A stretch of 64,000 nt of DNA from Amoebidium appalachense (Eukaryota > Protista > Ichthyosporea): positions 6,455,167 through 6,519,166 of the forward strand of contig CAVNZM010000005.1 of the NCBI GenBank assembly GCA_963693365.1, read 5' to 3'. Position 1 is the first letter of the stretch. Every line of letters begins with the position of its first letter. Shown piece after piece: positions 14,111 through 61,652 of this stretch. Under the pieces are notes generated by a model that was not told the origin of the DNA, did not search any database, and saw only the letters and a program-made list of their open reading frames with translations. The translations under genes and the position numbers were made by a program.

Positions 14111-14247
14111 GGAGGGATCCTGGGCCAACTTTGATCTGGCGACATGACGAGGAATGCGGAAAAAACACGATACCCCTTGTTGGTTGGCAAGCGCTGGCAC
14201 CCTCTTTTAGATACATGCACTAACTTTATTGTTGATGATTTGATAGA

Positions 14248-15024
14248 CCCGCTCTTCCGGCTACACGCATCCCCGCCGGATTCGCCCCTGTACCTCTTCC
14301 CTTCCCCATCGTCTCTGCCCATTGCCGAGCGCTATGTGGAATGGCTGGCGACCCCCCCGGAGGTACGGCTAGATCATAGTGTGAATATGAATAGTTTCAA
14401 GTCTATGGCTGATAGATATCTTTTTACTCTACGTGTTGAGTCCCTTCCGGTGTTAGGACCGCACAAACACCAACTACTAGTAGCCTATATGGCGGATACG
14501 GTTAGAGAGTCTCGTTCATACATAGATTCGTTTATTCGTAATGTGGTGTGGTGTAAAAACGCAAAGATGATTATGGCTTGGCGGTGTAATCGGTTTCTGG
14601 TGTCTCCTGCTCGTATGTGTAATATGTGTGGGGGGCGGTTTACTCGCGGCTGCATATCTATCAATAAATGCAACCTGTTAGCTAATGTATTAGAACCGGA
14701 GGTTATTGGCGGTTTTATTCTCTTTTCTTCATCTCTTCCTCAATATATCCGTTTTAAGATGACTATCCTAGATCACCTTATTAATGCTGCACAGTATGAT
14801 ATTGTGATCCGGTGCCTTAACTTTCTGTCGGAGCTACCGATGCTAGCATCTGCTTACCCATAATATGTAATAGGGGTGTCAGATCCTACGATGGCGCTCA
14901 TTGTTGCCTAGCATGTACATATGTCACTGGCTGCATTTGATTGGCTGTGCTGGAAAACGCAGTAGGCCGTCGAATGTGGCTGGGCCTCCGGCAATGTCCA
15001 CGCAATAAAAAGTGTGTAAACCCC
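14248..15024 (+). mobile_element. 3' fragment of a second, divergent LINE family (B) nested in LINE A copy 1
   Basis: Flanked by duplicated GATAGA (14242-14247, 15025-15030). Encodes WRCNRF...C..C...FTRGCI..C.LL...TILDHLIN...YD..IRCL, homologous to the family A ORF2 C-terminus (WRSNKY...CP...FNRSCI.KC.LI...NILDFILN...YD.FIRCI). Stop at 14863. Ends in GTAAACCCC. Confidence 0.82.
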
Positions 15025-15079
15025 GATAGATCTCGGTGATTATGCTGGCGGTGGTAGAAAGGAATATCCCGATGCTCTC

Positions 15080-17365
15080 TTGTTACCAAACACCACTCCC
15101 GCTAGACTAGGTGAACCCCTGTCTCAAAAGGAAAGCTTGCGCCGGCTTGCTAGTATGAATCGATTTGGCCCCCCTGCTCGTATTATTGGTGATACCACTG
15201 GAGACCCCCTCATAGACTCTGATAAGTATTTCTCGGAACTGTTTAAAGATAGGACCCCCGCTCAGAAACCTATTGTGTGGCCTGTAGACCCATCTATCCC
15301 CATAGAATCGATCCTCCCCTTTTTCAGTCCCGATGCCATATGGTCTGTGATATCTAGTTATAGCTCTAGTAAGTCTTGTGGACCTGATGGACTCCCTGCT
15401 GGGTTTCTTAAAATCCTTGTTCCCTCCTACCCACAAAAGGAAAGTGATCGTGCTATTAAACCTGATCTTACTATCATGTTAAGCTCTCTCTTTTCTTGGT
15501 GTGTTAAATGTGGACATGTCCCGTCATCTTGGTTAGATACCTTAGTGATCCCCATAGTTAAGAAGGACTCTGAGGGCCCCATATCATCCTTTCGCCCCAT
15601 TACACTAACCCAGGTTGTTCGTAGATTCTTTGAAGCTTGCTTACTTAGGTTATTTGCACATCACCCTAGGTTTCAATCTATTCTTCACATACACCCATGC
15701 CAATCCGCTTTTCGTAAAAACAATTCATGTTATGTTCAAATAATGGCACTGCACGATTCTATGCAAGTTGGTGCACGATATGTTGGCTTTATTGATTGGA
15801 AAACTGCTTACGATTCTGTCTCCCCTGGTCTCCTATGGGAAAAGCTTGCTGCACGGGGTGTACCACACTGCATTGGTGTTCTGTTAGAAGCACTCTTGTC
15901 TCAAACCTATGGTAGAGCTGTGGTTAATGGGCATCTTTCATATGGTTTTGCTCGTACTAGAGGTCTCTTGCAGGGTTCATTGCTTAGCCCCTTTTTGTTT
16001 AACCTATTTATAGATGATTTGGCTGTCAAGATTTACCCCGAAAACGATGACCCTATTAATAACTTTCCGCCTGCACTTCTCTATGCTGATGATCTGTCCC
16101 TCCTTGCCCGTACCCCTAAACGCCTGCAAAGATTGTTCGATGTAGTGTCAGAGTGGTGCAAGGCAAACCTTATGATCCTTAACATAGACAAATGTGGTGT
16201 TCTTGTACCTGATATAGCTAACAATTTACACACATTTACATTATCATCTAAACCTGTACCTATAGTTCCAGAATACAAATATCTTGGTATTCCGGTTGAT
16301 TCTGTTGGTGTTATGTTTCCCCATATGGTCGAAAAGAGGGTAGAGTTGGCTCGTAAGCGGTTAGCTTTCTTCTCGGCTAATATTTTTAAAGACACACCCC
16401 TCCATCCTTCTATTAGACTTACATTTATTCGCACTTTTGTCTTCCCGGCATGTGAATATGGTTTACCCCTTCTCGCCGTATGGATCAAGAAAGAGAGAAC
16501 TAGAGCGCTTAAACCCTTGGCAAATTTCCTTGAAGCAGAAGTTGCCTCCTTTCCATCTAACAACTGTTGTAAACCTGGGCCTGTAACGCTCTCGATATAT
16601 GGTCTGGTCCCAATAGCTGCTAGAGTATCCTATCTCGCGCTGAAATTCAATAAGCACATAAGCCGCTTAAAGAAGTATTTGCCCTCCCACCCTCTCTTCT
16701 CTGTCCGACCTGTCCCCTCCTCACCTCTCCCCTCTTTCCTCCCCTCTCTCTCCCCTTCTCCCCTGGGCACAAATACAAATAAACCCCGCAATAGTGCGTG
16801 TGTGACTTTGGACTGCCACTTACTTATTAAACATGTACACAATCACAAGATAATCACGCAATATAACAAATGGAAAAAGATACCACACGACACTAGACCC
16901 GATGAAAGCATACACCTTGAAAAACTAAGCCTTATGTCTCGTTTTATATATACTGACCGCCTCAACCATATTGCCAAATATGGCACTCGCAAATGTATAA
17001 CACCTAAATACATATTACCTTCCTGTAGAACTGGTCTTTCTCTAGCTGATGGTATTATTGATCAATTACCACGCTTTTACTGTACACGTGCTATACAGTG
17101 GAGATCTAATAAGTATAAGGTGGCATCATTTGCATGCCCAAACAACACACACACACACCAGTTTAACCGGTCATGTATCGCCAAATGTAGTTTGATAGAC
17201 CACATAATACCGCAACACACACACGTCACATTCACAACAGACACCCAGAAAGATAGCCTACCTGTAAATTACAACATCCTTGATTTTATACTAAACACGC
17301 GTAACTACGACCTGTTTATTAGATGTATTGATTGGCTTGAGAAACACATCACTACAAAATTATAG
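15080..17365 (+). CDS. LINE A ORF2 reverse transcriptase plus C-terminal Cys/His region (endonuclease missing in this copy)
   Basis: Non-LTR RT motifs GPDG, W...VIPIVKK, FRPITL, Q.AFR, FIDWKTAYDSV, GLLQGSLLSPFLFNLFIDDL, YADD, YKYLG in an uninterrupted frame. Confidence 0.92.
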   Translation: MLPNTTPARLGEPLSQKESLRRLASMNRFGPPARIIGDTTGDPLIDSDKYFSELFKDRTPAQKPIVWPVDPSIPIESILPFFSPDAIWSVISSYSSSKSCGPDGLPAGFLKILVPSYPQKESDRAIKPDLTIMLSSLFSWCVKCGHVPSSWLDTLVIPIVKKDSEGPISSFRPITLTQVVRRFFEACLLRLFAHHPRFQSILHIHPCQSAFRKNNSCYVQIMALHDSMQVGARYVGFIDWKTAYDSVSPGLLWEKLAARGVPHCIGVLLEALLSQTYGRAVVNGHLSYGFARTRGLLQGSLLSPFLFNLFIDDLAVKIYPENDDPINNFPPALLYADDLSLLARTPKRLQRLFDVVSEWCKANLMILNIDKCGVLVPDIANNLHTFTLSSKPVPIVPEYKYLGIPVDSVGVMFPHMVEKRVELARKRLAFFSANIFKDTPLHPSIRLTFIRTFVFPACEYGLPLLAVWIKKERTRALKPLANFLEAEVASFPSNNCCKPGPVTLSIYGLVPIAARVSYLALKFNKHISRLKKYLPSHPLFSVRPVPSSPLPSFLPSLSPSPLGTNTNKPRNSACVTLDCHLLIKHVHNHKIITQYNKWKKIPHDTRPDESIHLEKLSLMSRFIYTDRLNHIAKYGTRKCITPKYILPSCRTGLSLADGIIDQLPRFYCTRAIQWRSNKYKVASFACPNNTHTHQFNRSCIAKCSLIDHIIPQHTHVTFTTDTQKDSLPVNYNILDFILNTRNYDLFIRCIDWLEKHITTKL

Positions 17366-17385
17366 CGCACGCGCACACACACACA

Positions 17386-17423
<38 letters not shown>

Positions 17424-17428
<5 letters not shown>

Positions 17429-17903
17429 ACAGTTGGACTAGCTAGGATAAGGCAGAGTACAACTGAATCAAAATAAAGACAGAGAACGGGTAGAAAGGCA
17501 CACGCGGCCAGGTTGCTTTTACTATGGGCCGACTCAGTCTGTCTCAGACTTCACTGATGTGATCCCCGTACTGGGACGGCTTTCTTATATAGCCCCCAGG
17601 TTTCGGATCAAGGCCCAGGATTGGTTCATCCGCGGCCAGCGCGGGTGGCAACATGCCATTCGTGATTCTGGTGCGGTCCGAGCCAGTCAGACCTTCGTCC
17701 TATTTATGCAAACCTCTTATTGGTTCACTTCGTTTATGTGGTATGCAGCGGAAGAACCATATATGGTTCAATTCTTAGGTCAGAGTGAGTCCTATTGGTG
17801 CGGACATAATATTTATGTGATATTCATGACAAAGCACGAATCGTGTGGTAGTAGATCACATTCTTTAGTAAACATGTACAGTTCAGGTGTACAGTTGTTT
17901 ACA
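17424..17903 (-). repeat. 3' LTR (480 bp)
   Basis: Termini TGTAAACA...TGTTTACA; direct repeat of 20515-20994. Confidence 0.93.
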
Positions 17904-20502
17904 CTCCCCCCCTTGTTGGGAGCCTGGTGGTGTCGTTAGACAAGCAAACCACCAGGCTGAGAGGCGATAAACAACCTTCAGCGAGAATTCTCGTGCGCCG
18001 ACCTGCTGGGCAGAACAGAGCAAGGACGGTTGAATAGAGTTGTGCACGTCTATGAGCACTTCTTCATTTGCCAAAACGTAAATTCATGCAGCATTCTTCT
18101 GTGATTTCATTTTCGTGGCGAAGATTATTGCAGAGTGTGTGCGAATTGTTCGCTTCGTCTCTGTGCTTGGCTTTTCTGTAGAAGTAGTATTTTTCTTTTT
18201 GGGAATTTTTCCTTTTTAGGATACTCCCGCAGATTCGTTTTCAATTGCGAGTAATTTGGTTGTGTGGATGAATGATCATACCAAACATTCGATAATGAAT
18301 ATAACTCAAGCCTTAGGTCACTTCGTAGCTCAGGTAGTGGTGGATAGCTTCAAGGCTTAGCCGCTGCTCCTTATCCCGGTTCTACCTTAAGACTGTAAGC
18401 CGAGATACCATGGCCGGAAAAGCCACTTCTTTCATGAACAAAGAGCACTTCTTTCCTTTCAGCTTTAACCCTGCATCATCGGAGCTGGGAAAAACAGAAT
18501 AAAAATGCCCTAAATGTTCTTCGTTGGGCGACATAAAGAAATATATCAGCCCGTCAGAACCAGTAAAAACCCGGTTCATAATTCATAAGAAGAGGGTAGG
18601 CAAAGCAAGCCTCCTTCAGAAAACACATGCTTCCATTCGTGAGCAGTTTTCGTATCCCATTTGCCAGCCATTTTCGTTGAGCAGGGGGATTCCAGGCATA
18701 ATACATTCTTCTGGAGGCTTGGCCTAAAAAGAAAAGTCGTCACAGTCGCCCTTTCTTTTGTAAGCAACTTCGTGAGCGCGCTTCGTATCTTCATATCCTC
18801 CAGTGCAGGTCTGGATGGTGCCCCATCCTCTGCTTCTTTTGTAGGTGGCCCTACTGTTGGTTCTGTTTGTTGTGTGGAAAACCAAAACCATTCGTGTTCG
18901 TGGAACTGCTTTGTGCTGTGCTTTCTTTCGTGTTGGTGTTCATGGAGTTACCCCATTCACACACCTACTACTTTCATACATCAGACGTAAGTAGCTGCCT
19001 GGGGGGTGTGTGGTTCGTGTTCGTGGCATTCTTCTGTTCCTTCGTGAGAAGAATATTCGTTTTAGCAGAGGTGCCCAATAAGGCAGCTTGTGGGGTTGTC
19101 TCCCGCATGTGCCCATTGGTGGGGTATGCACGTGCTAAATTGTTACAGTGTCATCATATTGCAAGGGAATAACATGGTCACCTCCGTACCAGGGCCTAGG
19201 TACACATGATGGTCCGATGTGTTAGTCAACAACACCTTGCATTCGTATTCGTATTCGTCTTCCTCGTCACTTTCTTCAGTAGTGAAGGAGGGTATTCGTA
19301 ATTCGAAACTGAAAGGCTTCCAGCCAAAATACTGACACTGTATGCTGGGGTTGTGAGGGAACGGTGCCCATACCACATTCTTTTGTTTTCTTTATTCTGG
19401 TGGGGGTGTGCCGGCAGCAATTTTATTTTGCATGCGGGTATTCCAGGCTTTACAGCATAGTTCGTATGTTATAGTATTTGTACAGTATTGCCACACACTG
19501 GCAGTTACCTGTAAATTCGTACCCCACAGCTTCGTTTGTTTCGCATGCACGAACAAAGTTCTGCATCGACTTTATTACATGCCTTCTGTGCACCAAGAGT
19601 GCAAATTCGTTGGGGCATGGCACCAGGAAGGGCCATACATGAGGCATATGTTCGTAATGTGTTTAGGCATGCCAGCATACGTTCATGCGCATGTTGTGCA
19701 TCCTGTGCGATAAACTATGGGGCATGCTGTATTCGACAACAGCAAGAAATTCGAAGCATGCATGCAAAACTACTTTCACAGCACCTTATGTCCTACATGC
19801 TATAGGAACAGCGACTATCTTCTTCTTTAAATGCATTCGTGCTGAAAGTGGCCGTGCATCTGGCTTGCGAGTGTGGACGTGCATGCGGTGGCATGGACAC
19901 GATGGCAGTGTGCAATAGCGCAATGCACGCAAGGGCAACGGTTTTATTTTCTTCCTAACATAGAGGGGGCTGTGTGCATTGCAACCCAAGCAGTGTTGTG
20001 CATTCGTTCTTTCATTTTCGTATTTCCAATTCATTTTGCTTTCGTTTTTCGTTTTTTGTCGTTTGATAACTTCGTTACTTCGTTTTGTTTTCGTGTTGCA
20101 TTCATTTCGTATTTCCTCTATGCATTCGTTTGTCGTTAATTCTTTATTTCATTGTGTATTCGTGATGGTTCGTTTTTCGTTGGTTCATTGCTTCGTTAGC
20201 AATTCTTTATTCGTTTGTTCGTGTATTCGTTGTTTCGTTGTGTATTCGTTTTTCTTCACATTTTTTTTTGTGTCGTAGCAAAAGCCGTTTTACATGCTTT
20301 CAATTCTTTCCGTGTAGGTGGGCTGGCCACTTCAAACTTGTCGGTGTATATATTCTAAGTCGGACAAGGAAAGATGTACCTATCATCGTGGTAAAAAGGA
20401 TTTGTGATCGGCCATGGCAGATTCTTGGGGTAATTGAAAGATGTGAGATTCTTGTGCTGATTGAAAGATGTGAGATTCGAAGGATGCGAGATTCTTGAAC
20501 TG

Positions 20503-20513
20503 CGCGGTCGCCA
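20503..20513 (-). promoter_or_regulatory. Primer binding site, probably tRNA-Arg
   Basis: TGGCGACCGCG lies 1 nt from the 5' LTR and is complementary to a tRNA 3' end CGCGGUCG-CCA, as in eukaryotic tRNA-Arg (tRNA assignment from recall). Confidence 0.65.
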
Positions 20514-20514
20514 A

Positions 20515-20994
20515 TTTAAACAGTTGAACTAGCTAGGATAAGGCAGAGTACAACTGAATCAAAATAAAGACAGAGAACGGGTAGAAAGGCACACGCGGCC
20601 AGGTTGCTTTTACTATGGGCCGACTCAGTCTGTCTCAGACTTCACTGATGTGATCCCCGTACTGGGACGGCTTTCTTATATAGCCCCCAGGTTTCGGATC
20701 AAGGCCCAGGATTGGTTCATCCGCGGCCAGCGCGGGTGGCAACATGCCATTCGTGATTCTGGTGCGGTCCGAGCCAGTCAGACCTTCGTCCTATTTATGC
20801 AAACCTCTTATTGGTTCACTTCGTTTATGTGGTATGCAGCGGAAGAACCATATATGGTTCAATTCTTAGGTCAGAGTGAGTCCTATTGGTGCGGACATAA
20901 TATTTATGTGATATTCATGACAAAGCACGAATCGTGTGGTAGTAGATCACATTCTTTAGTAAACATGTACAGTTCAGGTGTACAGTTGTTTACA
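20515..20994 (-). repeat. 5' LTR (480 bp)
   Basis: Same sequence as 17424-17903 except for two substitutions seen near the PBS-proximal end. Confidence 0.93.
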
Positions 20995-21067
20995 ACACAC
21001 ACACACACACACAACCAGCTGATACCGAGTGTCCCAAGGGGAGCCCCTTTAAAAAAAAAAATAATAA

Positions 21068-21110
<43 letters not shown>

Positions 21111-21907
21111 AAATAAAAATAAAAAAAAATAAAAACGGGGAACCCCAACTAATTGATTTCTCCTTGTAGTCTTTATGGTGTCTCGTAGAGAAAGTAAACC
21201 CTGATATATAGTCACCACCCGACATCTATGTACGTGATCATGATATACCGCTGAGGGGATATTCCGAGCAAACCCCCCCCCCCCATACCTGAGACTGGTT
21301 CTCTTTGCCTCGAGTAAACAGCGTAAACCCCTCTTTTATTACACCAATCACCTTGGTCCAGAGATAAAAAAGGCAGGAAACTTCAGCAGCTAACTGGGCA
21401 TACCAAGAAAGCGCGCGCGACTCTCGACCACTACGCTGTAGGGGGGGTCGCCTGAAACGGGCCACTCTGGTGGCTCCTTCGGCTTGAATGAGCCACATAT
21501 GTGGCTCATAGGCAACTTATCACTAGGGTAAACATAGTTGCACGAAGTATGTAAAAGGCAAAAGCAAATAGAAAAGGGTAAAGTGCACTTCATTAGTATC
21601 CAATGACAATACACTGTTTGGAGGTTTTTATTATTGCTGCATCATGCTCAAGGTCTGCCTCAAACCTTGAGGCCCCCAGCTTGCGGTGTTGATGGCAGTA
21701 GACATCCAATATATATCACCCTCAGCGTGTGGATGTGCAGGTACATATGCCATAGGTGTAGTGTTTATCGCTCACTCACTGCGATACATGCAGCTCCTGC
21801 AGAATGTGGGGTGGAAAGGGTGGGGACGGAGGGTGAGAGGGGAGGGGAGGGGAAAGGGAGACGAGAGGTAAGGGGAGGGAGGGAGGAAGGCGAGAGAGAG
21901 AGAGAGA

Positions 21908-45856: not shown

Positions 45857-46789
45857 ATGGCGAAAGTCACGCCTGTTCACGTTCACACCTCAGACCAGTT
45901 TCCTCTTTCCACCACCGTTTTCGAACCCGCCAGAATTCATACACACAGCCCGGCAATATACGTGTCAAATGCAATGGGCGTAACACAAACCTTCTACCAC
46001 AAATTCTGCAGATTTCTCTCTGAGACATACCACGCACCTGTTGTCACGTTTGACTTTCGGGGCATGGGAAGCTCGTTCAAATCCGGGCAGAAACTACACG
46101 ACCTGAAAGAAACAAACATCATTGACCACTGGGCAGGGGAGGACCTTCCAGCAATTACTTCCTTTCTCGCAAAAACGTTTCCAGAAAGGCACATCGTCCA
46201 CCTCGGACATTCCATAGGGGCACACATGGCCCCGCTGAATCCCCTCAACTCAACGGTACATAGGCACCTCTTTATCTCTGCGTCCACTTCTTTCCACACG
46301 TCGGTCCACCTTCCAAGAGCATCCGGCGTTGCTCTTGCCGCGTGCGCAGGCCTTGCCTCTTTGATTCACTTCTACCCTATGGGGTGGATTACAAAAGGTG
46401 CACATGTGCCCAGAGATGCGGGTGTGCAGTGGGCGAAGTGGAGACACACGCCTAAGTACTGCACCGTGCACCCTACGGCAGAAGAGCGGTACCTGAATTT
46501 CGGCAAACCCAAAGGTGGGGTTCTTGCACTGGCGTTTTCGGATGATGAGCTGTGCAAGAGAGCGGGGTTTGAAGGCTGGCTTGGAAATTTCCCTGAGAAC
46601 ATTAGACCCCATCTTGTGTATGTGGACCCAAAGCAGGCGTTTGGGCCAAAGAGGAGGGTGGGACACATGAACATGTTCAAGGAGAGTACTAAAGACATTC
46701 TCTGGCACAGGTTTGGGGATTTCTTGGTGCATGGGGAGGCGCGGGGTTTGGTGGATGCTATGAAGCACGGGGTAAGAAAGTCGCATTGA
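45857..46789 (+). CDS. Intronless alpha/beta hydrolase, bacterial 'predicted alpha/beta hydrolase' (COG4757-like) type, 310 aa
   Basis: AMGV.Q.FY..FC.FL, VVTFDFRGMG.S, W...DLPA, nucleophile elbow GHSIG, P.....QWAKW, FSDD (acid) and VGHM (His). ATG at 45857 is supported by the paralog start MAKVTP. Confidence 0.85.
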   Translation: MAKVTPVHVHTSDQFPLSTTVFEPARIHTHSPAIYVSNAMGVTQTFYHKFCRFLSETYHAPVVTFDFRGMGSSFKSGQKLHDLKETNIIDHWAGEDLPAITSFLAKTFPERHIVHLGHSIGAHMAPLNPLNSTVHRHLFISASTSFHTSVHLPRASGVALAACAGLASLIHFYPMGWITKGAHVPRDAGVQWAKWRHTPKYCTVHPTAEERYLNFGKPKGGVLALAFSDDELCKRAGFEGWLGNFPENIRPHLVYVDPKQAFGPKRRVGHMNMFKESTKDILWHRFGDFLVHGEARGLVDAMKHGVRKSH

Positions 46790-47761: not shown

Positions 47762-48094
47762 GAGGCCTTGATATATGCACGACCGTTTTGCGGCACATTA
47801 AGTTTCTACCGACTCTAGGTTAGCAGCCTGCGCCCATCTTTCTTGTTATGACACACCCTCTGCTCGCATGCATCCCCGGGTCAACGTCGAAAGGTGCAGC
47901 CCCTTGCAACACCCACCTGGCCATCCCGTAACGTGGTAATCATATATTGCAAGGGGCTGCACCTTTCGACGTTGACCCGGGGATGCATGCGAGCAGAGGG
48001 TGTGTCATAACAAGAAAGATGGGCGCAGGCTGCTGACCTAGAGTCGGTAGAAATTTAATGTGCCGCAAAACGGTCGTGCATATATCAAGGCCTC
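47762..48094. repeat. Long inverted repeat: 148-bp arms (47762-47909, 47947-48094) with a 37-nt spacer
   Basis: The arms are reverse complements with only two mismatches. Confidence 0.93.
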
Positions 48095-48222: not shown

Positions 48223-50563
48223 AAAAAAAAAAAACAAAAAACACACACACATACACACACACCTCATCTCTACTCCCCCTTTTTCTCCAAGTGCGCGCGC
48301 ACCACTCACTTTAAGATATGCTGCTACCAATTGAGCCATGTGGGGATATGGATATAGGCCTCCTTAGGTTGTACAATGTTAGCACTGGTTTTTAGTCACT
48401 CCTTGCGGCTAGAGCTTATTTCCCATGCACCCTTAATGAACACCTGTTCCCCCCTTCCCCCCCTTCCCCCCCCCCCCCACCTCTTCCCCCTCCCCATTTC
48501 TCCTCCAAACCCAACCGGATTCATCTTCTCGCAAACCATGCTGTGCAAGAGAACCTGTACCTCGTGATCTATGTTATTTGCATCACCCTTAATTTCACCA
48601 CTCGTACGTGTACGCAGACCTCAAGCCTTTTTTCTCCCTTAACCTCTGGGCCGCTTGCCACTGATATGCCTCTTATCGCATATCCTTATGAAAATGACTT
48701 TCCCTTTCTGTATGATTATCTTTTTCCTACAGAAAACGGTCTTTGCTGTTTGCTTGAAAGGATGTTGGTTGTTGTCGGCTAGCTTCTAGGAGCAACAAGA
48801 AGGATGGGCAGGTTTGGTGTTTTTTATAAGCCTTGTTTTGTATGTAGCTGCAGATTTGTCGCTCCCCCCCCCCCCCCCCCCCCCCCCTCCCCCCCCTCCC
48901 TTGCACACACACACACACACACACTCTCTCTCTCTCTCTCCCTCTCCCCCCCCCCCCCTCCCCTCCCCCCCCCCTTCTCTCTCTACCCCCCTCCTCATCC
49001 ATCCCTCCCCCCCCACTAAATCTCGTCCTCACTCTCTCTTCACTATCACTCTCACTCTCTCTCTCTCCCCCCCCTCCCCCTCCCCCCCCCCCCCCCCTCG
49101 TTTCTCTCTCTGTCCCCATTTCTCGCTGCCCCCCCCCCCCCCCCCCCCCCCACCCACCCCTCTTAACTCTTTTTGCTCCCGGTTTCTCCCTCTTCTGTGT
49201 TTCAACCCCCTTGGGTGGAGGGGAGGGGGGAAAAGTGTAGGAAAACCTGAAAAAACCGAGCGAGGTTTTCACGTTTTTCTTGTCGGTTGGTGACCGTAGG
49301 TGGTCTGATCGATCGGTTGGTCCCATTTTCGCGTCACCCGGCCCTCATATGATTGGAGTAAGTGGTCCGGGCCGTTGCACACTTCACACGGTTTGCACGC
49401 GTACGCGTGTGCACAGGTGTACCGCTGTCGATGTGACGACGTCTCTATCGACGTTCCGGCGCTGAGCTTTGCAACTTGCACTTGCATTTGCCATGCCACC
49501 TGTCATGAACACTTCGCAACTTATATGCATGCCGCACCTTCGTTTTTCAGTTTTAGTCCGTACTGCTGAAAGGTGTGCTAATACGATTTCATAATTTAAA
49601 CATCATTTCTTCTCCCACCTCTTCTCTTCCCCCCCCCCCCCTCCCCCCCCAAACAAAGTTCCGGGCCACTTCCTTAAAAGAAAAATGGCGAAAGTAACGC
49701 CTATTCAGATTCACACAGCGGACCAGTTCCCTCTCTCCGCAACCGTCTTTGAACCCACGGAAATGCATACAAACAACCCGGCAATATTCGTGTCAAACGC
49801 GATGGGCGTAACGCAAACCTTCTACCACGAATTCTGCAGGTTTCTCTCCGAGACCTATCACGCCCCCGTTGTCACGTTTGACTTTCGGGGCATGGGGAGC
49901 TCTTTTCAACCAGGGCAGAAACTACACGATTTGAAAGAAACAAACGTCATCGACCACTGGGCAGGGAAGGACCTCCCAGCAATTACCTCCTTCGTCGCGA
50001 AATGTTTCCAGAAAGGCACATCGTCCACCTGGGACATTCCCTAGGTGCACACATGGCCCCACTGAATCCTCTTAACTCAGCCGTCCACAGGCACCTCTTT
50101 GTCTCTGCGGCTACCTCATTCCACACGTCAATGCACCTTCCAAGAGTATCTGGCGTTGCTCTTGCTGCGTGTGCAGGCTTGGCCTCTTGGATCCACTTCT
50201 TCCCTATGGGTTGGATATCACAAGGCGCACACGTGCCCAGAGATGTGGGTGTGCAGTGGGCGAATTGAAGGCACACGCCAAAGTACTGCACCGTGCATCC
50301 TACAGCGGAAGAAAGTTATCGGAATTTCGGAAAACCCAAAGGGGGGGCTCTTTCGCTTGCGTTTTCTGATGATGAGTTGATCAAGAGAGCGGGGTTTGAA
50401 GGCTGGCTTGGAAACTTCCCTGAGAAACACAAGACCCCATCTGGTGCACATCGATTCAAATGTCGCTTTCTATTATCTGCTAATAAATAGTATCCTTCGC
50501 GCATCCACCCCTAAACCAGGCCATCCGTGGCCCTAAGGGCCGGGGAACACCCCCATCCATGTC

Positions 50564-51748
50564 ATGGCACATGCCTATAATCGTTTCAGAACCTCTTTCA
50601 AAGTTCCATCTACACCCATCACACATGTGCGACCATTAAAACGTCCAGCAGATACACCTACCACAGATGCACAACCAGAAAAACATCGCCTTAGACTAAG
50701 CGCAACACCTATTTACAATACACTACCCATTCAGAATAACACCACACCACTCCGTAGAAACACAATAACAACCATGCCGAAACTTTCGGTTGATACAGTA
50801 CTGGCAGAACTTGCCCTCGTTAAGAAACAGCTAAATGAGCTGTTACCACTCAAGAACATGATAGAAAAACTCCAAACAGAAAATACCCAACTCAAGCTCA
50901 CCATTGATTCACTCACAGCCCAGCTAAACATTAGTGGATCGCAAAACCCCAAAACTCATGAGCAAACATCTCGCGACGGAGACATTTCCACCCCAACACA
51001 AAACAACACAGGACCGGAAGCACAGCTCCCGGCAGAGTTCCTAGAATATGCGAACTCTCGTAAAACACCCGAGCTCCGCCAAATTGCCAAGGAAACATAT
51101 GCCAGCATTCTTGCAGGCAACGAGTACCGCCGCAACTCCCCTCCCAAACCGCCGGCTAAGGGGAACACCCAAGCAAACGGTAACATCAACATCCCACCCA
51201 AATACGAGAGGGTGTATTTCAAAGTCAAGCACGGCAGACGCCCACACAGGGCCATGTGGTCCATCTTCAAGGCTCTCGGCTTCCGGTGCTCTCGCATCCT
51301 TTGTCTGTCCTTCATTGGATACGATGTGCTGGAAGTAGCAGTACGGGGCGACTATAACCGTGCGTTCATCCGTGACGCGACAAAGGGGTGTGGAAGCTTC
51401 TTCACCCACCTCCCAAGCTACGACCCATGCGCGCCGGAAAACATTCAGAAAGCAGACAAAGAACGTAAAGTGTCTGCTAAGAATGCGTGCGCCACACGTT
51501 GTCGTGTACGCATCAGCAAGGCAAAAGAGTTCCTCGCAAAGTTGGAAAACGATGCTACGAGCGTGATAGACACGGACACGAAGGAACCAATGTTTTCTGG
51601 TGAGAAACTGCTCGAGCGCAAACGCCGATGCGAGATGGAAATCGAGCTCTTCTGCGAACTGTTCGCGCTGGCGGAAGGTCGTGCATACGACCCCGTAAGC
51701 GACAAGTGGGAACCAACCCCACAGGTGTCGGACCAAACCGATGCCTAA
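50564..51748 (+). CDS. LINE ORF1 protein (394 aa; coiled coil plus a putative RNA-binding domain)
   Basis: Long open frame immediately upstream of ORF2. Heptad region LAELALVKKQLNEL...IEKLQTENTQLKLTIDSL; basic alpha/beta region RVYFKV...RILCLSFIGYDVLEVAV...YDP. No CCHC knuckle. Confidence 0.85.
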   Translation: MAHAYNRFRTSFKVPSTPITHVRPLKRPADTPTTDAQPEKHRLRLSATPIYNTLPIQNNTTPLRRNTITTMPKLSVDTVLAELALVKKQLNELLPLKNMIEKLQTENTQLKLTIDSLTAQLNISGSQNPKTHEQTSRDGDISTPTQNNTGPEAQLPAEFLEYANSRKTPELRQIAKETYASILAGNEYRRNSPPKPPAKGNTQANGNINIPPKYERVYFKVKHGRRPHRAMWSIFKALGFRCSRILCLSFIGYDVLEVAVRGDYNRAFIRDATKGCGSFFTHLPSYDPCAPENIQKADKERKVSAKNACATRCRVRISKAKEFLAKLENDATSVIDTDTKEPMFSGEKLLERKRRCEMEIELFCELFALAEGRAYDPVSDKWEPTPQVSDQTDA

Positions 51749-54700
51749 TTTATCCTTCTTCTTCTGGAATGCTCGGACACTGGGCCCCCAAAAGGGCCTC
51801 CCCCCCGGGACACTCGACGATAAAATCAGCTACATACAACAACAGACAAACAACCACACGTTTACAGTGATTTGCGAAACACAGTTTAAAAACCACCACA
51901 AATTCAACTCTACATTGGTCGACACATCCACACACCCCGGTTACGCGAAAAACCGAGGCATTATTGTACTTGCCGCACCACACGTGAGAGTGAAGTGCAA
52001 ACCGGTAGCAAAAACGGAATTCTCGGTTTCTATAGAGTTTCTTTCTAATGTTTTTACTTTTGTATATTACCCACCATCTATGTCGGTTGTCGAATTGACT
52101 CACGAGTTGTCACAGTTACCAATGTCCACTGTTATTTTAGGTGATTTTAACACGCGACTCCACCACACAGACACACTGCAAGTGAGTGTCGGGTACCCAT
52201 CTAAGCCCCCGGAGCGTGCTATCCCTTTAGCAAGGTATGTCCAAAGTCACACTTTGCGGTTCCCTCAAATATCCCATGCCCACAACACCGACTGGGGAGT
52301 GGCCTTTTGGCCATCAACCATGTCAAAACTCTCTCTCCCTCCTAACCTCTCTAGGTCATCTGACCACTCTCCTATCCTTTTCCTACCTAAGATCTCCCTT
52401 GATCTGCTCCCCCCTCCCCCTCCCACCTTTCGCCTCCGTCTATCCCAGCTTAAGTCACAGTGGGGTAGAGTTGATGTATGTGTATGCTATGCTACGAAAC
52501 ACCCTATATATATGCGCCTATTAGAATCTGCACAAGCCAGGCCAGATTCACATCTCGTACTACTAGATACATGCACTAACTTTATTGTTGATGATTTGAT
52601 AGATCTCGGTGATTATGCTGGCGGTGGTAGGAAGGAATATCCCGATGCTCTCTTGTTACCAAACACCACTCCCGCTAGACTAGGTGAACCCCTGTCTCAA
52701 AAGGAAAGCTTGCGCCGGCTTGCTAGTATGAATCGATTTGGCCCCCCTGCTCGTATTATTGGTGATACCACTGGAGACCCCCTCATAGACTCTGATAAGT
52801 ATTTCTCGGAACTGTTTAAAGATAGGACCCCCGCTCAGAAACCTATTGTGTGGCCTGTAGACCCATCTATCCCCATAGAATCGATCCTCCCCTTTTTCAG
52901 TCCCGATGCCATATGGTCTGTGATATCTAGTTATAGCTCTAGTAAGTCTTGTGGACCTGATGGACTCCCTGCTGGGTTTCTTAAAATCCTTGTTCCCTCC
53001 TACCCACAAAAGGAAAGTGATCGTGCTATTAAACCTGATCTTACTATCATGTTAAGCTCTCTCTTTTCTTGGTGTGTTAAATGTGGACATGTCCCGTCAT
53101 CTTGGTTAGATACCTTAGTGATCCCCATAGTTAAGAAGGACTCTGAGGGCCCCATATCATCCTTTCGCCCCATTACACTAACCCAGGTTGTTCGTAGATT
53201 CTTTGAAGCTTGCTTACTTAGGTTTAGTTGCACATCACCCTAGGTTTCAATCTATTCTTCACATACACCCATGCCAATCCGCTTTTCGTAAAAACAATTC
53301 ATGTTATGTTCAAATAATGGCACTGCACGATTCTATGCAAGTTGGTGCACAATATGTTGGCTTTATTGATTGGAAAACTGCTTACGATTCTGTCTCCCCT
53401 GGTCTCCTATGGGAAAAGCTTGCTGCACGGGGTGTACCACACTGCATTGGTGTTCTGTTAGAAGCACTCTTGTCTCAAACCTATGGTAGAGCTGTGGTTA
53501 ATGGGCATCTTTCATATGGTTTTGCTCGTACTAGAGGTCTCTTGCAGGGTTCATTGCTTAGCCCCTTTTTGTTTAACCTATTTATAGATGATTTGGCTGT
53601 CAAGATTTACCCCGAAAACGATGACCCTATTAATAACTTTCCGCCTGCACTTCTCTATGCTGATGATCTGTCCCTCCTTGCCCGTACCCCTAGACGCCTG
53701 CAAAGATTGTTCGATGTAGTGTCAGAGTGGTGCAAGGCAAACCTTATGATCCTTAACATAGACAAATGTGGTGTTCTTGTACCTGATATAGCTAACAATT
53801 TACACACATTTACATTATCATCTAAACCTGTACCTATAGTTCCAGAATACAAATATCTTGGTGTTCCGGTTGATTCTGTTGGTGTTATGTTTCCCCATAT
53901 GGTCGAAAAGAGGGTAGAGTTGGCTCGTAAGCGGTTAGCTTTCTTCTCGGCTAATATTTTTAAAGACACACCCCTCCATCCTTCTATTAGACTTACATTT
54001 ATTCGCACTTTTGTCTTTGTTCCCGGCATGTGAATATGGTTTACCCCTTCTCGCCGCTTGGATCAAGAAAGAGAGAACTAGAGCGCTTAAACCCTTGGCA
54101 AATTTCCTTGAAGCAGAAGTTGCCTCCTTTCTATCTAACAACTGTTGTAAACCTGGGCCTGTAACGCTCTCGATATATGGTCTGGTCCCAATAGCTGCTA
54201 GAGTATCCTATCTCGCGCTGAAATTCAATAAGCACATAAGCCGCTTAAAGAAGTATTTGCCCTCCCACCCTCTCTTCTCTATCCGACCTGTCCCCTCCTC
54301 ACCTCTCCCCTCTTTCCTCCCCTCTCTCTCCCCTTCTCCCCTGGGCACAAATACAAATAAACCCCGCAATAGTGTGTGTGTGACTTTGGACTGCCACTTA
54401 CTTATTAAACATGTACACAATCACAAGATAATCACGCAATATAACAAATGGAAAAAGATACCACACGACACTAGACCCGATGAAAGCATACACCTTGAAA
54501 AACTAAGCCTTATGTCTCGTTTTATATATACTGACCGCCTCAACCATATTGCCAAATATGGCACTCGCAAGTGTATAACACCTAAATACATATTACCTTC
54601 CTGTAGAACTGGTCTTTCTCTAGCTGATGCTATTATTGCCAGTGATCAATTACCACGCTTTTACTGTACACGTGCTATACAGTGGAGATCTAATAAGTAT

Positions 54701-54949
54701 AAGGTGGCATCATTTGCATGCCCAAACAACACACACACACACCAGTTTAACCGGTCATGTATCGCCAAATGTAGTTTGATAGACCACATAATACCGCAAC
54801 ACACACACGTCACATTCACAACAGACACCCAGAAAGATAGCCTACCTGTAAATTACAACATCCTTGATTTTATACTAAACACGCGTAACTACGACCTGTT
54901 TATTAGATGTATTGATTGGCTTGAGAAACACATCACTACAAAATTATAG
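51741..54949 (+). pseudogene. LINE ORF2 (APE endonuclease + RT + Cys/His C-terminus) with two frameshifts (~53224, +1; ~54016, +4)
   Basis: APE motifs FWNAR, VICET, ILGDFN, SDHSPI, followed by RT motifs through YADD. Frameshifts were located by comparison with copies 1 and 3. Confidence 0.9.
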
Positions 54950-54969
54950 CGCACGCGCACACACACACA

Positions 54970-55036
<67 letters not shown>

Positions 55037-55068
55037 CCAGCTGATACCGAGTGTCCCGAGGGGAGCCC

Positions 55069-55104
<36 letters not shown>

Positions 55105-55557
55105 GGGGAACCCCAACTAATTGATTTCTCCTTGTAGTCTTTATGGTGTCTCGTAGAGAAAGTAAACCCTGATATATAGTCACCACCCGACATCTATGTA
55201 CGTGATCATGATATACCGCTGAGGGGATATTCCGAGCAAACCCCCCCCCCCCATACCTGAGACTGGTTCTCTTTGCCTCGAGTAAACAGCGTAAACCCCT
55301 GGTGTATATGGACCCAAAGCAGGCGTTTGGACCAACGAGGAGGGTGGGACACATGAACATGTTCAACGAGAGCACAAAAGACATTCTCTGGCATAGGATG
55401 GGGGATTTCTTGGTGCATGGGGAAGCAGGAGGTTTGATGGATGCCTGAGCACGGGGTAAGAAAGTCACATTAGGAGAGGCCGAAAGGTCGTGGCCATTTG
55501 CAATTGGTGTAGTAGTATGACAACGGTTTAAAAGGTGTTGTTTAAGCATGCTACAGG

Positions 55558-56852: not shown

Positions 56853-57020
56853 GGGCACATAGCAGCTGAAAATGGGGAAGGAAACACGCCGACCACTCAA
56901 ATTTGAAGTAAACGCTGCATTATCAGCTGGTAAAACTGAGACTGGAACAGCAGAAAACGAGTGTTGTTTTTGCGAGGCTATTAAAGGGAATAGTGGGTTG
57001 AGGTTCGACGAACAAAAAGG
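56853..57020 (+). pseudogene. Degenerate copy of exon 1 of the gene starting at 61400
   Basis: GGGCACATAGCAGCTGAAAATGGGGAAG.AA..ACGCCGACCAC.CAAA...GGTAAAAC.GAGA.TGGA.CAGCAGAAAACGA matches 61381-61540, with indels. Confidence 0.8.
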
Positions 57021-59131
57021 CCTGGTGGATGCAAAGAAGTCGGGGTGAGAAAGTCACACGGAGAGGAGCTGTGGGTATGGTGTAACGCGCGTCTCAAACC
57101 GGGTTCTTTGGGCAAACCGAAAAACGTAAATGTGTCGTTTAATAAACGTTGCAGTGATGTAAGTACAAGTAGCTTTGTAGATGTGTAGGTTTATGAAGTG
57201 AAAGTGAGTTCATAGAACGAACATGAAAGCTGTTATGCTTTCTGGCCTCAAGAAACGCGAGAACTTTTTTTTCCTTGTGTGTCACGAAGATTTTACAAGA
57301 AGGCACAACTAGACGGTGAACGTGAACGTGCCATGATATGCACAGGAGCAGTTACAATAGATGGCTGCACACACACTGTAATTTGTACTTTGAACTTGCG
57401 CGAGTACGCATGTTAACGTAGAAGATCAATAGATCTTGCACGGCTGAGGTCCATACATAGGGGAACCCCACTAATGAAAATATAAAAGGCGAATTCAAGA
57501 TGCCGAGTTTATGATAAAGCACCGGAGATTCTTCTCCCTGACACGATTATGAAAGTATATGTATGTGTACTAACAGTTGCGTAACGCCTCATGTCACGTA
57601 ATGTCATAAGGATTGTAACAAGGCTGAGCTTGACTGTTAAGAAGGAAGCGAGAGGGAGCCTCGGATATTGGGGGGAGGGGGGGGGGGGGGGGGGGGGGGG
57701 AGCAAGACTCTGGTGTGGGTGGCTAGGCTTGGGGTGCTGGTGGGGGTAGGGGGATGGGTTAAAGGGGAGGGAGGGGGGTGGAGGGAGGGGGGAGGAGGAA
57801 GAGAGGGCGGAAGGCCTAGGAAGATTACCGCTAGCGAAGTGGGAGTCTTTTTAGGCTGACGTCGACATACTACATACTAGATGAGAAAAACGAGGGGCTT
57901 AAATAGAGGGATTAGGGAGAGCAAGTTTCCGTGGGTGGGTGGGTGGTGGTGGTGGTGGTGGTGGTGAAGGTGGGGGAGTGGGTGGGGAAGGGTAGGGTGG
58001 GGAGGGCGCTGGGCTGAGGTGGGCAGAGGGGGAGGGGGGGAGTAAGAATGAGTAAGCCGCCTGTGAGTCTCTTTTGAAGCCAACCGTGTCTTTTTAATAT
58101 TTGGTTGGTATCGCAAGGATACTGTTGTTGTTGCCCCCTCGGAGAAGGGTGGGGGAGGGGGGGAAGGGGGGGGAGGGGGGGGAGGAAGAATGAGGCCTAG
58201 GGCTAAACAGCTTTTGAGTCTCGTTGACAAGCTGACTGTCCTTTTTGGTTGTTAATGGGGTACTGTAAGGATGTTGTTGTTGTTGGCCCCCCCGGGGAGG
58301 GGGGGGGGGGAGGAGGAGACGGGGGAGGAGGGGGGGGGGGAGGGGGGGGGGGGGGGGGGGAGGGGAATAGCCGGCTCAGGCACTACTGCTAACAAAATAG
58401 TACGGAGAGAAAACTCAGTGATCAGATGGAGCTAGATGGGAGAAGAACCGATCCTCATATATGACTTAAGTGGAAGACAGCGTGAGCTAAGTTCTGAAAG
58501 GAGGGGCTTTGAGGTGAAAGGAAACTAGCCCTCCGCCAACCCCCCTAACCCCCCAATCATTCCGTAATCTTTAGTAATTTTTTTTTTTTTGTCCGTAAAC
58601 ATGCACATAGGCAGTGGGGTGGCCCAGGGGGAAGGAAAGGGGCAGGGGGAGGGGAGGAGGGGGGGTATGGGGGGAGGGGGGGGCGAGGGATGATGTGGTC
58701 AGCTATGATATATTTCTTCACTTTTCTCCATCATAGAAAACTATGACAGACTCTGGGCATTAGTGAGATCTGTTGATGTGGAGGTTCTGAGCTGAGAGAC
58801 CAAGTGATGTATGTGCATGTACATGTGCGTCTGTGCCTGTGTGCATGCGTGTGTGCATTTCCTGAGGTTGGTCACCTGCACTCGCACGTGCCTGCGTGTT
58901 GGCGCAAAGGGGACCTGTTGCCGCAGTGTGCGTGCGCACGTGTGAAATGTGCACGTGATTGTGGTGCAAAGTGCCCGAGAACACACCAGAACACAGGCCG
59001 GGAACACTAACTTTGGCGGTTACGTAACGCGCAGTTTGGGTGGTGCGTTATGACGTCATTGGATGCGATATGAACCAATCATTGCCTGGTTGAGGTGTGT
59101 CGTTATGTGCACGTGCATTGCTAAGTACATA

Positions 59132-59197
59132 AAACTGCTATGGGCGTGGTTAGTACTGCGGTGGGGGACCACGCGGGAATACCACGTGCTGTAATCT
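59132..59197 (+). rRNA. 5S rRNA 3' half (retroposed pseudogene fragment)
   Basis: GGGCGTGGTTAGTACTGCGGTGGGGGACCACGCGGGAATACCACGTGCTGTAATCT follows the eukaryotic 5S consensus GGTTAGTAC...GGGAGACC...GGGAATACC..GTGCTGT. Helices CGTGG/CCACG and CTGCGGTGG/CCACGCGG with loop E (TTAGTA/GAATA) are intact. Confidence 0.88.
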
Positions 59198-60586
59198 CTA
59201 TTTATAGATGATTTGGCTGTCAAGATTTACGCCGAAAACGATGACCCTATTAATAACTTTCCGCCTGCACTTCTCTATGCTGATGATCTGTCCCTCCTTG
59301 CCCGTACCCCTAGACGCCTGCAAAGATTGTTCGATGTAGTGTCAGAGTGGTGCAAGGCAAACCTTATGATCCTTAACATAGACAAATGTGGTGTTCTTGT
59401 ACCTGATATAGCTAACAATTTACACACATTTACATTATCATCTAAACCTGTACCTATAGTTCCAGAATACAAATATCTTGGTGTTCCGGTTGATTCTGTT
59501 GGTGTTATGTTTCCCCATATGGTCGAAAAGAGGGTAGAGTTGGCTCGTAAGCGGTTAGCTTTCTTCTCGGCTAATATTTTTAAAGACACACCCCTCCATC
59601 CTTCTATTAGACTTACATTTATTCGCACTTTTGTCTTCCCGGCATGTGAATATGGTTTACCCCTTCTCGCCGCTTGGATCAAGAAAGAGAGAACTAGAGC
59701 GCTTAAACCCTTGGCAAATTTCCTTGAAGCAGAAGTTGCCTCCTTTCTATCTAACAACTGTTGTAAACCTGGGCCTGTAACGCTCTCGATATATGGTCTG
59801 GTCCCAATAGCTGCTAGAGTATCCTATCTCGCGCTGAAATTCAATAAGCACATAAGCCGCTTAAAGAAGTATTTGCCCTCCCACCCTCTCTTCTCTATCC
59901 GACCTGTCCCCTCCTCACCTCTCCCCTCTTTCCTCCCCTCTCTCTCCCCTTCTCCCCTGGGCACAAATACAAATAAACCCCGCAATAGTGTGTGTGTGAC
60001 TTTGGACTGCCACTTACTTATTAAACATGTACACAATCACAAGATAATCACGCAATATAACAAATGGAAAAAGATACCACACGACACTAGACCCGATGAA
60101 AGCATACACCTTGAAAAACTAAGCCTTATGTCTCGTTTTATATATACTGACCGCCTCAACCATATTGCCAAATATGGCACTCGCAAGTGTATAACACCTA
60201 AATACATATTACCTTCCTGTAGAACTGGTCTTTCTCTAGCTGATGCTATTATTGCCAGTGATCAATTACCACGCTTTTACTGTACACGTGCTATACAGTG
60301 GAGATCTAATAAGTATAAGGTGGCATCATTTGCATGCCCAAACAACACACACACACACCAGTTTAACCGGTCATGTATCGCCAAATGTAGTTTGATAGAC
60401 CACATAATACCGCAACACACACACGTCACATTCACAACAGACACCCAGAAAGATAGCCTACCTGTAAATTACAACATCCTTGATTTTATACTAAACACGC
60501 GTAACTACGACCTGTTTATTAGATGTATTGATTGGCTTGAGAAACACATCACTACAAAATTATAGCGCACGCGCACACACACACAC

Positions 60587-60645
<59 letters not shown>

Positions 60646-60677
60646 CCAGCTGATACCGAGTGTCCCGAGGGGAGCCC

Positions 60678-60722
<45 letters not shown>

Positions 60723-60956
60723 AAAAATAAAAAAATAAAAAAATAAAAAAAAAAAAAAAACGGGGAACCCCAACTAATTGATTTCTCCTTGTAGTCTTTA
60801 TGGTGTCTCGTAGAGAAAGTAAACCCTGATATATAGTCACCACCCGACATCTATGTACGTGATCATGATATACCGCTGAGGGGATATTCCGAGCAAACCC
60901 CCCCCCCCCATACCTGAGACTGGTTCTCTTTGCCTCGAGTAAACAGCGTAAACCCC
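59132..60956 (+). mobile_element. 5S rRNA-LINE A chimeric insertion (LINE part 59198-60956, 5'-truncated)
   Basis: A single 9-bp TSD AAGTACATA (59123-59131, 60957-60965) brackets both the 5S fragment and the LINE fragment. The LINE part is near-identical to 53577-55299 and open-frame to 60565. Confidence 0.9.
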
Positions 60957-61399
60957 AAGTACATATCACGCACACTCATACCCATATCCCGGGATATGTA
61001 CGCGTACGGCACTCAAGACACATGCACACACACACGTGTACACGCGCACATACAGGTGTACTGTAGCCAAGTAGTTATCTATGGAACTCTTGAAAGTCAC
61101 GGGTGTTCGTTTTTCTCCGTTGAATTCAGTCAGCGTTGGTGTAAAAATAAGATCACTTTTTTCTACGGTCGTGCTAATACTTTAGAGCACATCTCTTTTT
61201 TTACACTTCGTGTCAAAAGCACCAGTTACTATATAGAGGACAACCAAAGTTTAGACAAACAGGCTTGAGCTAAGTTTAATGACAGTTAACACGCAAGTGG
61301 TCACCCGGTTTTTTCTTGATAGAGAGGTAAATGGCTTGGTCACAGCCTATACTTAGACACACAAACACACTCGCACACATGGGCACATAGCAGCTGAAA

Positions 61400-61652
61400 A
61401 TGGGGAAGAAATCACGCCGACCACCCAAACTGAACGCTGCATCCTCAGCGGGTAAAACGGAGATTGGATCAGCAGAAAACGACTGTTACTACTGTGACGT
61501 TATAAGGAAGAATAGTGCGCTAAGGTTCAACAAAAGGGTATTGGGGGTGGTGCCATTTGCGGATGAAAAGATTGAACCGCTGTGGGAGAGTGTGTGTGCA
61601 CAACACTTAAAGGAGGTACGTACTGTGTGTGTGTGTGTGGGGGGGGGGGGGG

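What the first reader, a model, noticed from the sequence alone, without database searches (positions are those of the whole stretch)
59123..60965. 5S rRNA-LINE chimera: a Pol III RNA fused to a LINE 3' half within one target-site duplication
Seen: 66 nt of the 3' half of 5S rRNA, ending at about the mature 3' end (...GTGCTGTAATCT), is joined directly and in the same sense to mid-RT sequence of LINE A. The 9-bp TSD AAGTACATA flanks the combined unit. Known: U6-L1 and rarer 5S-L1 chimeras arise in vertebrates by RT template jumping or RNA ligation, and 5S-derived SINE3 elements pair a 5S head with a LINE tail. Inference: this LINE's RT jumps onto the 3' end of cellular small RNAs. The insertion is a snapshot of the step that can create a SINE3-like element in a non-animal lineage. 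It is young (near-identical to the full-length copy) and sits about 440 bp upstream of a host ATG.
Basis: partly seen in the sequence, partly recalled or inferred. Interest (0 to 1): 0.8.

Follow-up and report, generated by a model that had tools for sequence, protein, structure and literature searches.

The report
One-off 5S rRNA-LINE chimeric insertion
The last 66 bases of 5S ribosomal RNA are fused to the back half of a jumping gene inside one target-site duplication, in what is likely a single-celled relative of animals; it was likely made when the copying enzyme hopped onto a 5S RNA, a by-product already known from mammals and fungi, and it is predicted to be unable to spread as a new short repeat.

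Summary
59132-59197 is the 3' 66 nt of this organism's 5S rRNA: identical to the gene in run contigs and ending at the first T of its Pol III terminator. It is joined bluntly, same sense, to a 5'-truncated APE-RT LINE (59198-60956), and one 9-bp duplication encloses both. The LINE protein is 98% identical to an Amoebidium EukProt record, so the host is likely an ichthyosporean. Best reading (0.68): one target-primed insertion in which the RT jumped from LINE RNA onto the 3' end of mature 5S RNA. One run shows a second, single-locus joint at the same 5S base, to the last 21 nt of a different LINE. This element is not a SINE3 or a plausible founder: the 5S 5' half and the start of box A are missing, five T-runs lie before the tail, and no multi-copy family was seen. 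Not shown: no listed contig bridges the 5S|LINE joint, and no empty site was found. Small-RNA/LINE chimeras are described in mammals and Magnaporthe, and this scan found 5S versions before in other genomes (unreviewed notes). New lineage, known kind.

The parts
59123..59131 (+). left copy of the 9-bp target-site duplication
   Evidence: spanned with the flank and the first 30 nt of 5S by X1 and X2 contigs
59132..59197 (+). 3' 66 nt of 5S rRNA (about model positions 55-120), 5'-truncated inside the box A region, ending at the first T of the gene's Pol III terminator
   Evidence: RF00001; identical to the organism's 5S gene contigs, loose ends show the gene's continuation on both sides; box A position recalled
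59198..60565 (+). 3' part of LINE A ORF2, from mid-RT (just upstream of the YADD motif) to the stop codon; frame open; starts at base 3132 of the 4853-bp full-length copy
60566..60956 (+). LINE A 3' UTR: (CA)n tract, internal A-rich tract, then a 196-bp end identical in all 3 window copies and ending GTAAACCCC without a poly(A) tail
60957..60965 (+). right copy of the 9-bp target-site duplication
50447..55299 (+). full-length LINE A sister copy (ORF1, APE-RT ORF2 broken by two frameshifts), 5-6-bp TSD; reference for the junction
14210..21331 (+). 5'-truncated LINE A copy, 7-10-bp TSD, interrupted by a LINE B piece and an LTR element; no small-RNA head found
14248..15024 (+). 3' piece of LINE B, a distant relative (25% protein identity); its last 21 nt (15004-15024) are what follows the 5S end in the second joint seen in run X2

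Best explanation
This is a single, likely dead-on-arrival insertion: the 3' 66 nt of 5S rRNA joined to a truncated LINE within one 9-bp duplication, likely made when the LINE reverse transcriptase jumped from its own RNA onto the 3' end of a mature 5S rRNA. Steps: (1, inferred from established LINE biology) the APE domain nicks the target and the RT copies LINE A RNA from its CCCC end; (2, shown as a breakpoint) copying of LINE RNA stops 1759 nt in, in mid-RT; (3, inferred) the RT takes up the free 3' end of 5S rRNA, possibly through a non-templated A paired to the terminal U, and copies on; (4, shown as a breakpoint) it stops after 66 nt and the cDNA is joined to the target, leaving the 9-bp duplication. 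The product has no complete Pol III promoter and no LINE promoter, so it is predicted not to multiply.
For: One TSD around both parts, chance about 3e-5; no repeat of the 5S end after the LINE end for k = 3-14, so the LINE did not simply land behind an older 5S relic. 5S part identical to the gene and ending at the first T of the gene's terminator, with no gene flank: an RNA end. Same sense, blunt joint, no microhomology with either window copy of the LINE, which excludes twin priming (orientation rule: 10.1101/2025.02.02.635956, passages). In X2 a second joint leaves 5S at the same base into the last 21 nt of LINE B and then at least 234 nt of other DNA (decomposed): the same acceptor end used by another family. 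Jumping onto template 3' ends is shown in vitro for R2 RT (PMC8857657, abstract and section 10) and L1 ORF2p (PMC10830420, passages). RtcB ligation needs a cyclic-phosphate end that 5S does not normally carry (PMC6789731, passages).
Against: No listed contig bridges the 5S|LINE joint (only part of the pieces are listed, and a short low-depth link between two deep repeats is easily lost). No empty site was seen. The sequence cannot tell jumping from prior RNA ligation: both give a sense, blunt joint. PMC8857657 (section 10) argues that jumping may not be needed in vivo and that L1 chimeras arise by pre-ligation. The second joint rests on one contig in 1 of 6 runs laid, read from a two-contig consensus.
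Confidence: 0.68

Rival explanations
1. RNA ligation first: a cellular ligase joined the 3' end of 5S rRNA to a broken LINE RNA, and the fused RNA was then inserted and 5'-truncated, as for human U6/L1.
For: Predicts the same sense, blunt joint at the small RNA's 3' end; shown for U6/L1 (PMC6789731, passages). The second joint starts exactly at the predicted loop of LINE B's terminal hairpin, a place where a nuclease could cut.
Against: RtcB needs a 2',3'-cyclic phosphate, which 5S is said not to carry normally (PMC6789731, passages). The loop start is equally where an RT would meet the stem's other arm. No fusion RNA was tested.
Confidence: 0.12
2. Copy of a master: a 5S-LINE fusion arose once elsewhere (for example a truncated LINE directly behind a 5S gene), was transcribed through and retrotransposed; this locus is a 5'-truncated daughter, i.e. 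a small SINE3-like family.
For: 5' truncation inside the 5S part is what a daughter copy would show. The junction's copy number could not be read.
Against: Five T-runs of 4 or more in the LINE part would stop Pol III. The gene's terminator is cut after one T, unlike a genomic neighbour. In 5 of 6 runs laid a contig leaves 5S at 59197; in none listed does it go on into LINE A.
Confidence: 0.08
3. Two steps or DNA repair: a separately made 5S cDNA or a 5S DNA piece was patched in when the LINE's 5' end was joined to the target, or an older 5S relic and a later LINE sit side by side.
For: Neither joint shows clear microhomology; foreign DNA at LINE 5' ends is known (general knowledge).
Against: The piece ends exactly at the mature RNA end, twice; the TSD encloses both parts and no second duplication lies between them; the 5S piece has 0 differences from the gene.
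Confidence: 0.07
4. Assembly artefact at the 5S|LINE joint.
Against: Flank|5S is carried by contigs of two samples at single-copy-like depth (46.8 and 66.4); a mis-join would hardly produce a matching 9-bp duplication 1.8 kb away or stop at the terminator's first T.
Confidence: 0.05

Closest known systems
Small-RNA/LINE-1 chimeric insertions of mammals, including 5S/L1 (10.1101/2025.02.02.635956, passages read; U6 chimeras in PMC4476161, passages read)
   Same: Non-LINE RNA copy fused 5' of a truncated LINE, one TSD, each a unique event that does not self-propagate; 5S made up 10.5% of 253 human candidates; U6 chimeras also made by L2 and RTE clades.
   Different: Human 5S/L1 chimeras are mostly antisense and hold the 5' 46-90 nt of 5S; this one is sense, holds the 3' 66 nt and joins at the mature 3' end, as U6 does. 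The LINE here is not mammalian L1 and has no terminal poly(A).
WEIRD/MGL-LINE (MINE) chimeras of Magnaporthe grisea (PMC2104539, abstract and Background read)
   Same: Non-animal host; cellular RNA joined in the same sense to a truncated LINE 3' part, flanked by direct repeats; explained by template switching.
   Different: The captured RNA there is a non-coding RNA of unknown function, stated to be full-length; here it is 5S and 5'-truncated.
SINE3 (5S-derived SINEs; PMC4494074, PMC10886601, PMC5063351, passages read)
   Same: 5S sequence 5' of a LINE-derived 3' end, with a TSD.
   Different: SINE3 keeps the 5S 5' part with boxes A, IE and C and is multi-copy and short; this element lacks the 5' half, is 1.8 kb, holds internal T-runs and shows no family.
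APE-RT LINEs of early-diverging opisthokonts
   Same: ORF1 resembles unnamed proteins from clusters whose commonest phylum is Mucoromycota (0.92-0.93, a lead only); ORF2 has APE motifs and RT; a Mucor saturninus RT protein is among the 41 hits (27%).
   Different: Clade not assigned here; ends in GTAAACCCC with the A-rich tract inside the 3' UTR.

Membership tests
Small-RNA/LINE chimeric insertion (broad definition, 10.1101/2025.02.02.635956) | Unrelated RNA-derived sequence at the 5' end of a truncated LINE | tested here: met
Small-RNA/LINE chimeric insertion (broad definition, 10.1101/2025.02.02.635956) | One TSD around both parts | tested here: met
Small-RNA/LINE chimeric insertion (broad definition, 10.1101/2025.02.02.635956) | Both parts arrive together: empty allele lacks both | tested here: inconclusive
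   X8, X9 and X12 gave no cover of the flank, X7 only part of it at depth about 3; no genome held
Buzdin/Gogvadze-type chimera (PMC2104539, Background) | 5' part is a full-length cellular RNA | tested here: not met
   66 nt, about model positions 55-120 of 120; so filed only under the broad class
Buzdin/Gogvadze-type chimera (PMC2104539, Background) | Directly joined, same orientation, direct repeats | tested here: met
SINE3 | 5S head with complete internal Pol III promoter (box A, IE, box C) | tested here: not met
   starts at about model position 55, inside box A (position about 50-64, recalled); the gene's upstream bases are absent
SINE3 | Short element that Pol III can read to the tail | tested here: not met
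   1825 bp; T-runs at 59577, 59629, 60136, 60275, 60484
SINE3 | Many copies sharing one head-tail junction | tested here: inconclusive
   one copy in the window; no high-depth contig from the 5S end into a LINE among those listed; whole genome not searchable
SINE3 | LINE-derived 3' tail | tested here: met
U6/L1-type RtcB ligation product | Small RNA with 2',3'-cyclic phosphate; fusion RNA exists apart from insertion | not testable with these tools
   no RNA holder on record; requirement from PMC6789731 passages
APE-RT non-LTR retrotransposon (LINE A) | ORF1, APE catalytic motifs, RT domain, TSDs, 5' truncation | tested here: met
   ORF1; GDxN and SDH invariant in 9 of 9 aligned proteins; PF00078 E 5e-28; TSDs at 3 of 3 copies. 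Pfam gave no endonuclease hit for the window's own APE region
APE-RT non-LTR retrotransposon (LINE A) | Assignment to a named clade (L1, RTE, Tad and so on) | not tested
   no tree built; PDB hits to R2 and L1 RTs are equally distant

The most novel reading that the evidence does not exclude
In this ichthyosporean, two distant LINE families that end in GTAAACCCC instead of poly(A) both jump onto the same terminal U of mature 5S rRNA, and the second product (5S plus only the last 21 nt of LINE B, seen in run X2) keeps a whole 5S head: a minimal, promoter-complete SINE3 founder caught at copy number one in a culturable relative of animals.
Probability: 0.12. Interest if true: 0.6.

Novelty: new member of a known kind. 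Interest (0 to 1): 0.3.

Why it matters
It extends small-RNA capture by LINE reverse transcriptases to a likely ichthyosporean and to LINEs without a poly(A) end. Because 5S is not known to carry the cyclic-phosphate end that RtcB needs, sense joints at the mature 5S end bear on the open question of template jumping versus RNA ligation in vivo. It supports the general idea that such joins are the raw material of SINE3, but this element itself is a dead end, and the class is already described.

Tried and rejected
Whole-genome screen of LINE 5' flanks: impossible, no genome held. Exact scans for the LINE A end in metagenome contigs and viral contigs, and for the 5S end in metagenome contigs: 0 hits each. 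No RNA holder listed. Diverged 5S contigs in X2 (depth 23-28) and X12 (2-4 differences) probably belong to another organism and were set aside. Small-RNA heads on the other two LINE A copies and on LINE B: none at E up to 1 (0 of 3 junctions), no tRNA in the window, no Rfam family in the 3' UTR. The paralogous region at 55.9-57.1 kb aligns only near the ATG and gives no empty site. Microhomology-guided joining via the T-rich likeness of the 5S flank and the LINE upstream of the break was considered and rejected: none of that sequence is in the chimera. Twin priming rejected by orientation. No look-alike among the scan's earlier windows. Literature searches for a 5S/LINE chimera or SINE in ichthyosporeans and for the CCCC end listed no such paper; the main text of PMC11244446 has 0 hits for 'SINE' and '5S rRNA'; its supplements, which may name this LINE family, were not read.

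Full report
Observation. The window reads flank - AAGTACATA (59123-59131) - 66 nt (59132-59197) - LINE (59198-60956) - AAGTACATA (60957-60965) - flank. Rfam places 5S rRNA here (33.4 bits, E 2.3e-4; gathering 38), with the well-aligned part at about model positions 55-120 of 120, the last base being model position 120. A 25-nt core occurs once in the window and in 0 of 100 shuffles. The chance of the 9-mer recurring at the boundary is about 4e-6 per register.

The LINE. Three copies of LINE A lie in the window: a full-length one at 50447-55299, a truncated and doubly interrupted one at 14210-21331, and this one. The full-length copy has ORF1 and an ORF2 split over three frames, so it is not intact. 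ORF2 carries RT (PF00078, E 5e-28) and endonuclease motifs invariant in 9 of 9 aligned homologues, though Pfam gave no endonuclease hit for the window's own APE region. The chimera's LINE part starts at base 3132 of 4853, keeps an open frame, and differs from the full-length copy by 1 substitution and that copy's 4-nt insertion over 1368 nt. All 3 copies end in GTAAACCCC directly followed by their TSD (5-6, 7-10 and 9 bp). The best of 41 protein hits is 98% identical and is labelled Amoebidium parasiticum by EukProt, so the host is likely an Amoebidium (Ichthyosporea, unicellular holozoan). About half of an Amoebidium genome is transposable elements (PMC11244446, passages read). No clade was assigned.

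Read evidence. No genome is held. Of 24 listed runs, 20 hold the stretch; 6 were laid, all as contigs. The organism's own 5S gene is identical to the piece (X1, X9), continues upstream as 5S, and continues after 59197 into a T-run. So the piece ends at the first T of the Pol III terminator and carries no gene flank: it was copied from the RNA. No listed contig bridges 59197/59198 (32 of 20,425 pieces and 24 of 728 loose ends listed; 26 of 104 and 18 of 21). No run gave an empty site. Depth ratios, which the tool warns are not copy numbers, put 5S at roughly 40-150 times and LINE A at several times that.

A second joint. In 5 of the 6 runs a contig leaves 5S at 59197. In X1, X7, X8 and X9 it is the gene's terminator only. 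In X2 two contigs leave there, with a consensus whose first 21 nt equal window 15004-15024, the end of LINE B. The listed agreement (0.87) and median length (133) are reproduced exactly by one 12-nt gene end plus one end of 255 nt or more. I infer a single-locus 5S + 21-nt LINE B tail insertion; the contig running on without a break argues for one copy, not a family. Its 5' extent and TSD are unknown. LINE B is a distant relative of LINE A (25% over 174 aa, E 1e-14). The 21 nt begin at the loop of a predicted terminal hairpin. This rests on one contig in one run.

Mechanism. Same sense excludes twin priming (10.1101/2025.02.02.635956, passages). A LINE landing behind an older relic would duplicate the 5S end, which it does not. 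There is no microhomology at the 5S|LINE joint with either window copy. That leaves template jumping during target-primed reverse transcription or prior RNA ligation. Jumping onto a template's 3' end after non-templated addition is shown in vitro for R2 RT (PMC8857657, abstract and section 10) and for L1 ORF2p (PMC10830420, passages). Ligation is shown for U6/L1 but needs a cyclic phosphate that 5S is said not to carry normally (PMC6789731, passages); PMC8857657 nevertheless doubts that jumping matters in vivo. I give jumping 0.68, ligation 0.12, copy of a master 0.08, repair patch or two steps 0.07, artefact 0.05. The two breakpoints, the TSD and the RNA-end match are shown; the jump itself is inferred.

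Not a SINE3. SINE3 heads serve as Pol III promoters with boxes A, IE and C (PMC10886601, PMC4494074, passages). This piece begins inside box A (position recalled, about 50-64 of 5S), lacks the transcription start, and is followed by five T-runs of 4 or more before the tail. No multi-copy junction was seen, but the genome could not be searched.

Age. Identity to the 5S gene, a perfect TSD and an open frame all indicate youth. One caution: this copy and the full-length neighbour 4 kb away share C at 60246 and a 6-nt insertion at 60253-60258 that almost no contig depth supports (window allele 262 of 264,081 in X1, 247 of 270,983 in X2), about 4-6 single-copy equivalents. Contigs drop rare variants, so this is a hint only, but it may mean a shared rare parent, local origin or gene conversion.

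Known kinds. Human 5S/L1 chimeras are 10.5% of 253 candidates, mostly antisense and 5'-half, each unique and non-propagating (10.1101/2025.02.02.635956, passages). U6 chimeras are made by L1, L2 and RTE LINEs (PMC4476161, passages). Outside animals, template-switch chimeras are described in Magnaporthe (PMC2104539, abstract and Background) and 5S-derived SINEs in Aspergillus (PMC5063351, passages). This scan's unreviewed notes list similar 5S, U6 and 5.8S chimeras in other genomes; I did not test them. My searches listed no paper on such chimeras in ichthyosporeans; other listed papers were seen as listings only, and no supplements were read.

Verdict. Real, well formed and ordinary in kind: a new member of the small-RNA/LINE chimera class, in a new lineage, with U6-like geometry (sense, mature 3' end) rather than the human 5S geometry. 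Interest 0.3.

Noticed in passing
run X2 contigs at window 59197; window 15004-15024: A second 5S joint at the same base, to the last 21 nt of LINE B and then other DNA; inferred to be a single locus. If its 5S head is complete it is a far better SINE3 founder candidate than the element reported.
   Followed up: partly
window 15016-15024, 21323-21331, 55291-55299, 60948-60956: Two LINE families only 25% alike in protein both end in GTAAACCCC with no poly(A); LINE A has its (CA)n and A-rich tracts inside the 3' UTR. Both are predicted to have a stem just before the last 8 nt (weak for LINE A). One paper search found no description.
   Followed up: partly
window 60246-60258 and 54630-54642: The chimera and the full-length copy 4 kb away share a substitution and a 6-nt insertion that are rare in the family's contigs: shared rare parent, local origin or gene conversion.
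   Followed up: partly
window 14210-21331: Three-level nest: LINE A carries a LINE B 3' piece (14248-15024, 6-bp TSD) and, in its CA tract, an element with 481-bp direct repeats (17423-17903, 20514-20994, 99.6% alike) and no long ORF between them, likely a non-autonomous LTR element.
   Followed up: no
window 49686-50446 / 55300-55513 and 45859-46789: The full-length LINE A interrupts one of two intronless alpha/beta-hydrolase paralogs (85% alike; PF12697); the interrupted one also has stops.
   Followed up: no
window 51801-51816 and 55048-55063: 16-nt, 94% complementary arms link the start of ORF2 with the 3' UTR of LINE A; possibly a long-range RNA pairing, possibly chance (1 of 16 pairs listed).
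   Followed up: no
window 61400-61624 and 56872-57045: Short duplicated ORF with a CxxC motif, frame conserved for 58 codons; no clear family. The chimera lies 435 bp upstream of one copy.
   Followed up: partly
window 11170-12829: piggyBac-type transposase pieces (PF13843, E 6e-10) in two frames.
   Followed up: no
window 47762-48094: A 333-bp near-perfect palindrome (91%), possibly a miniature inverted-repeat element.
   Followed up: no
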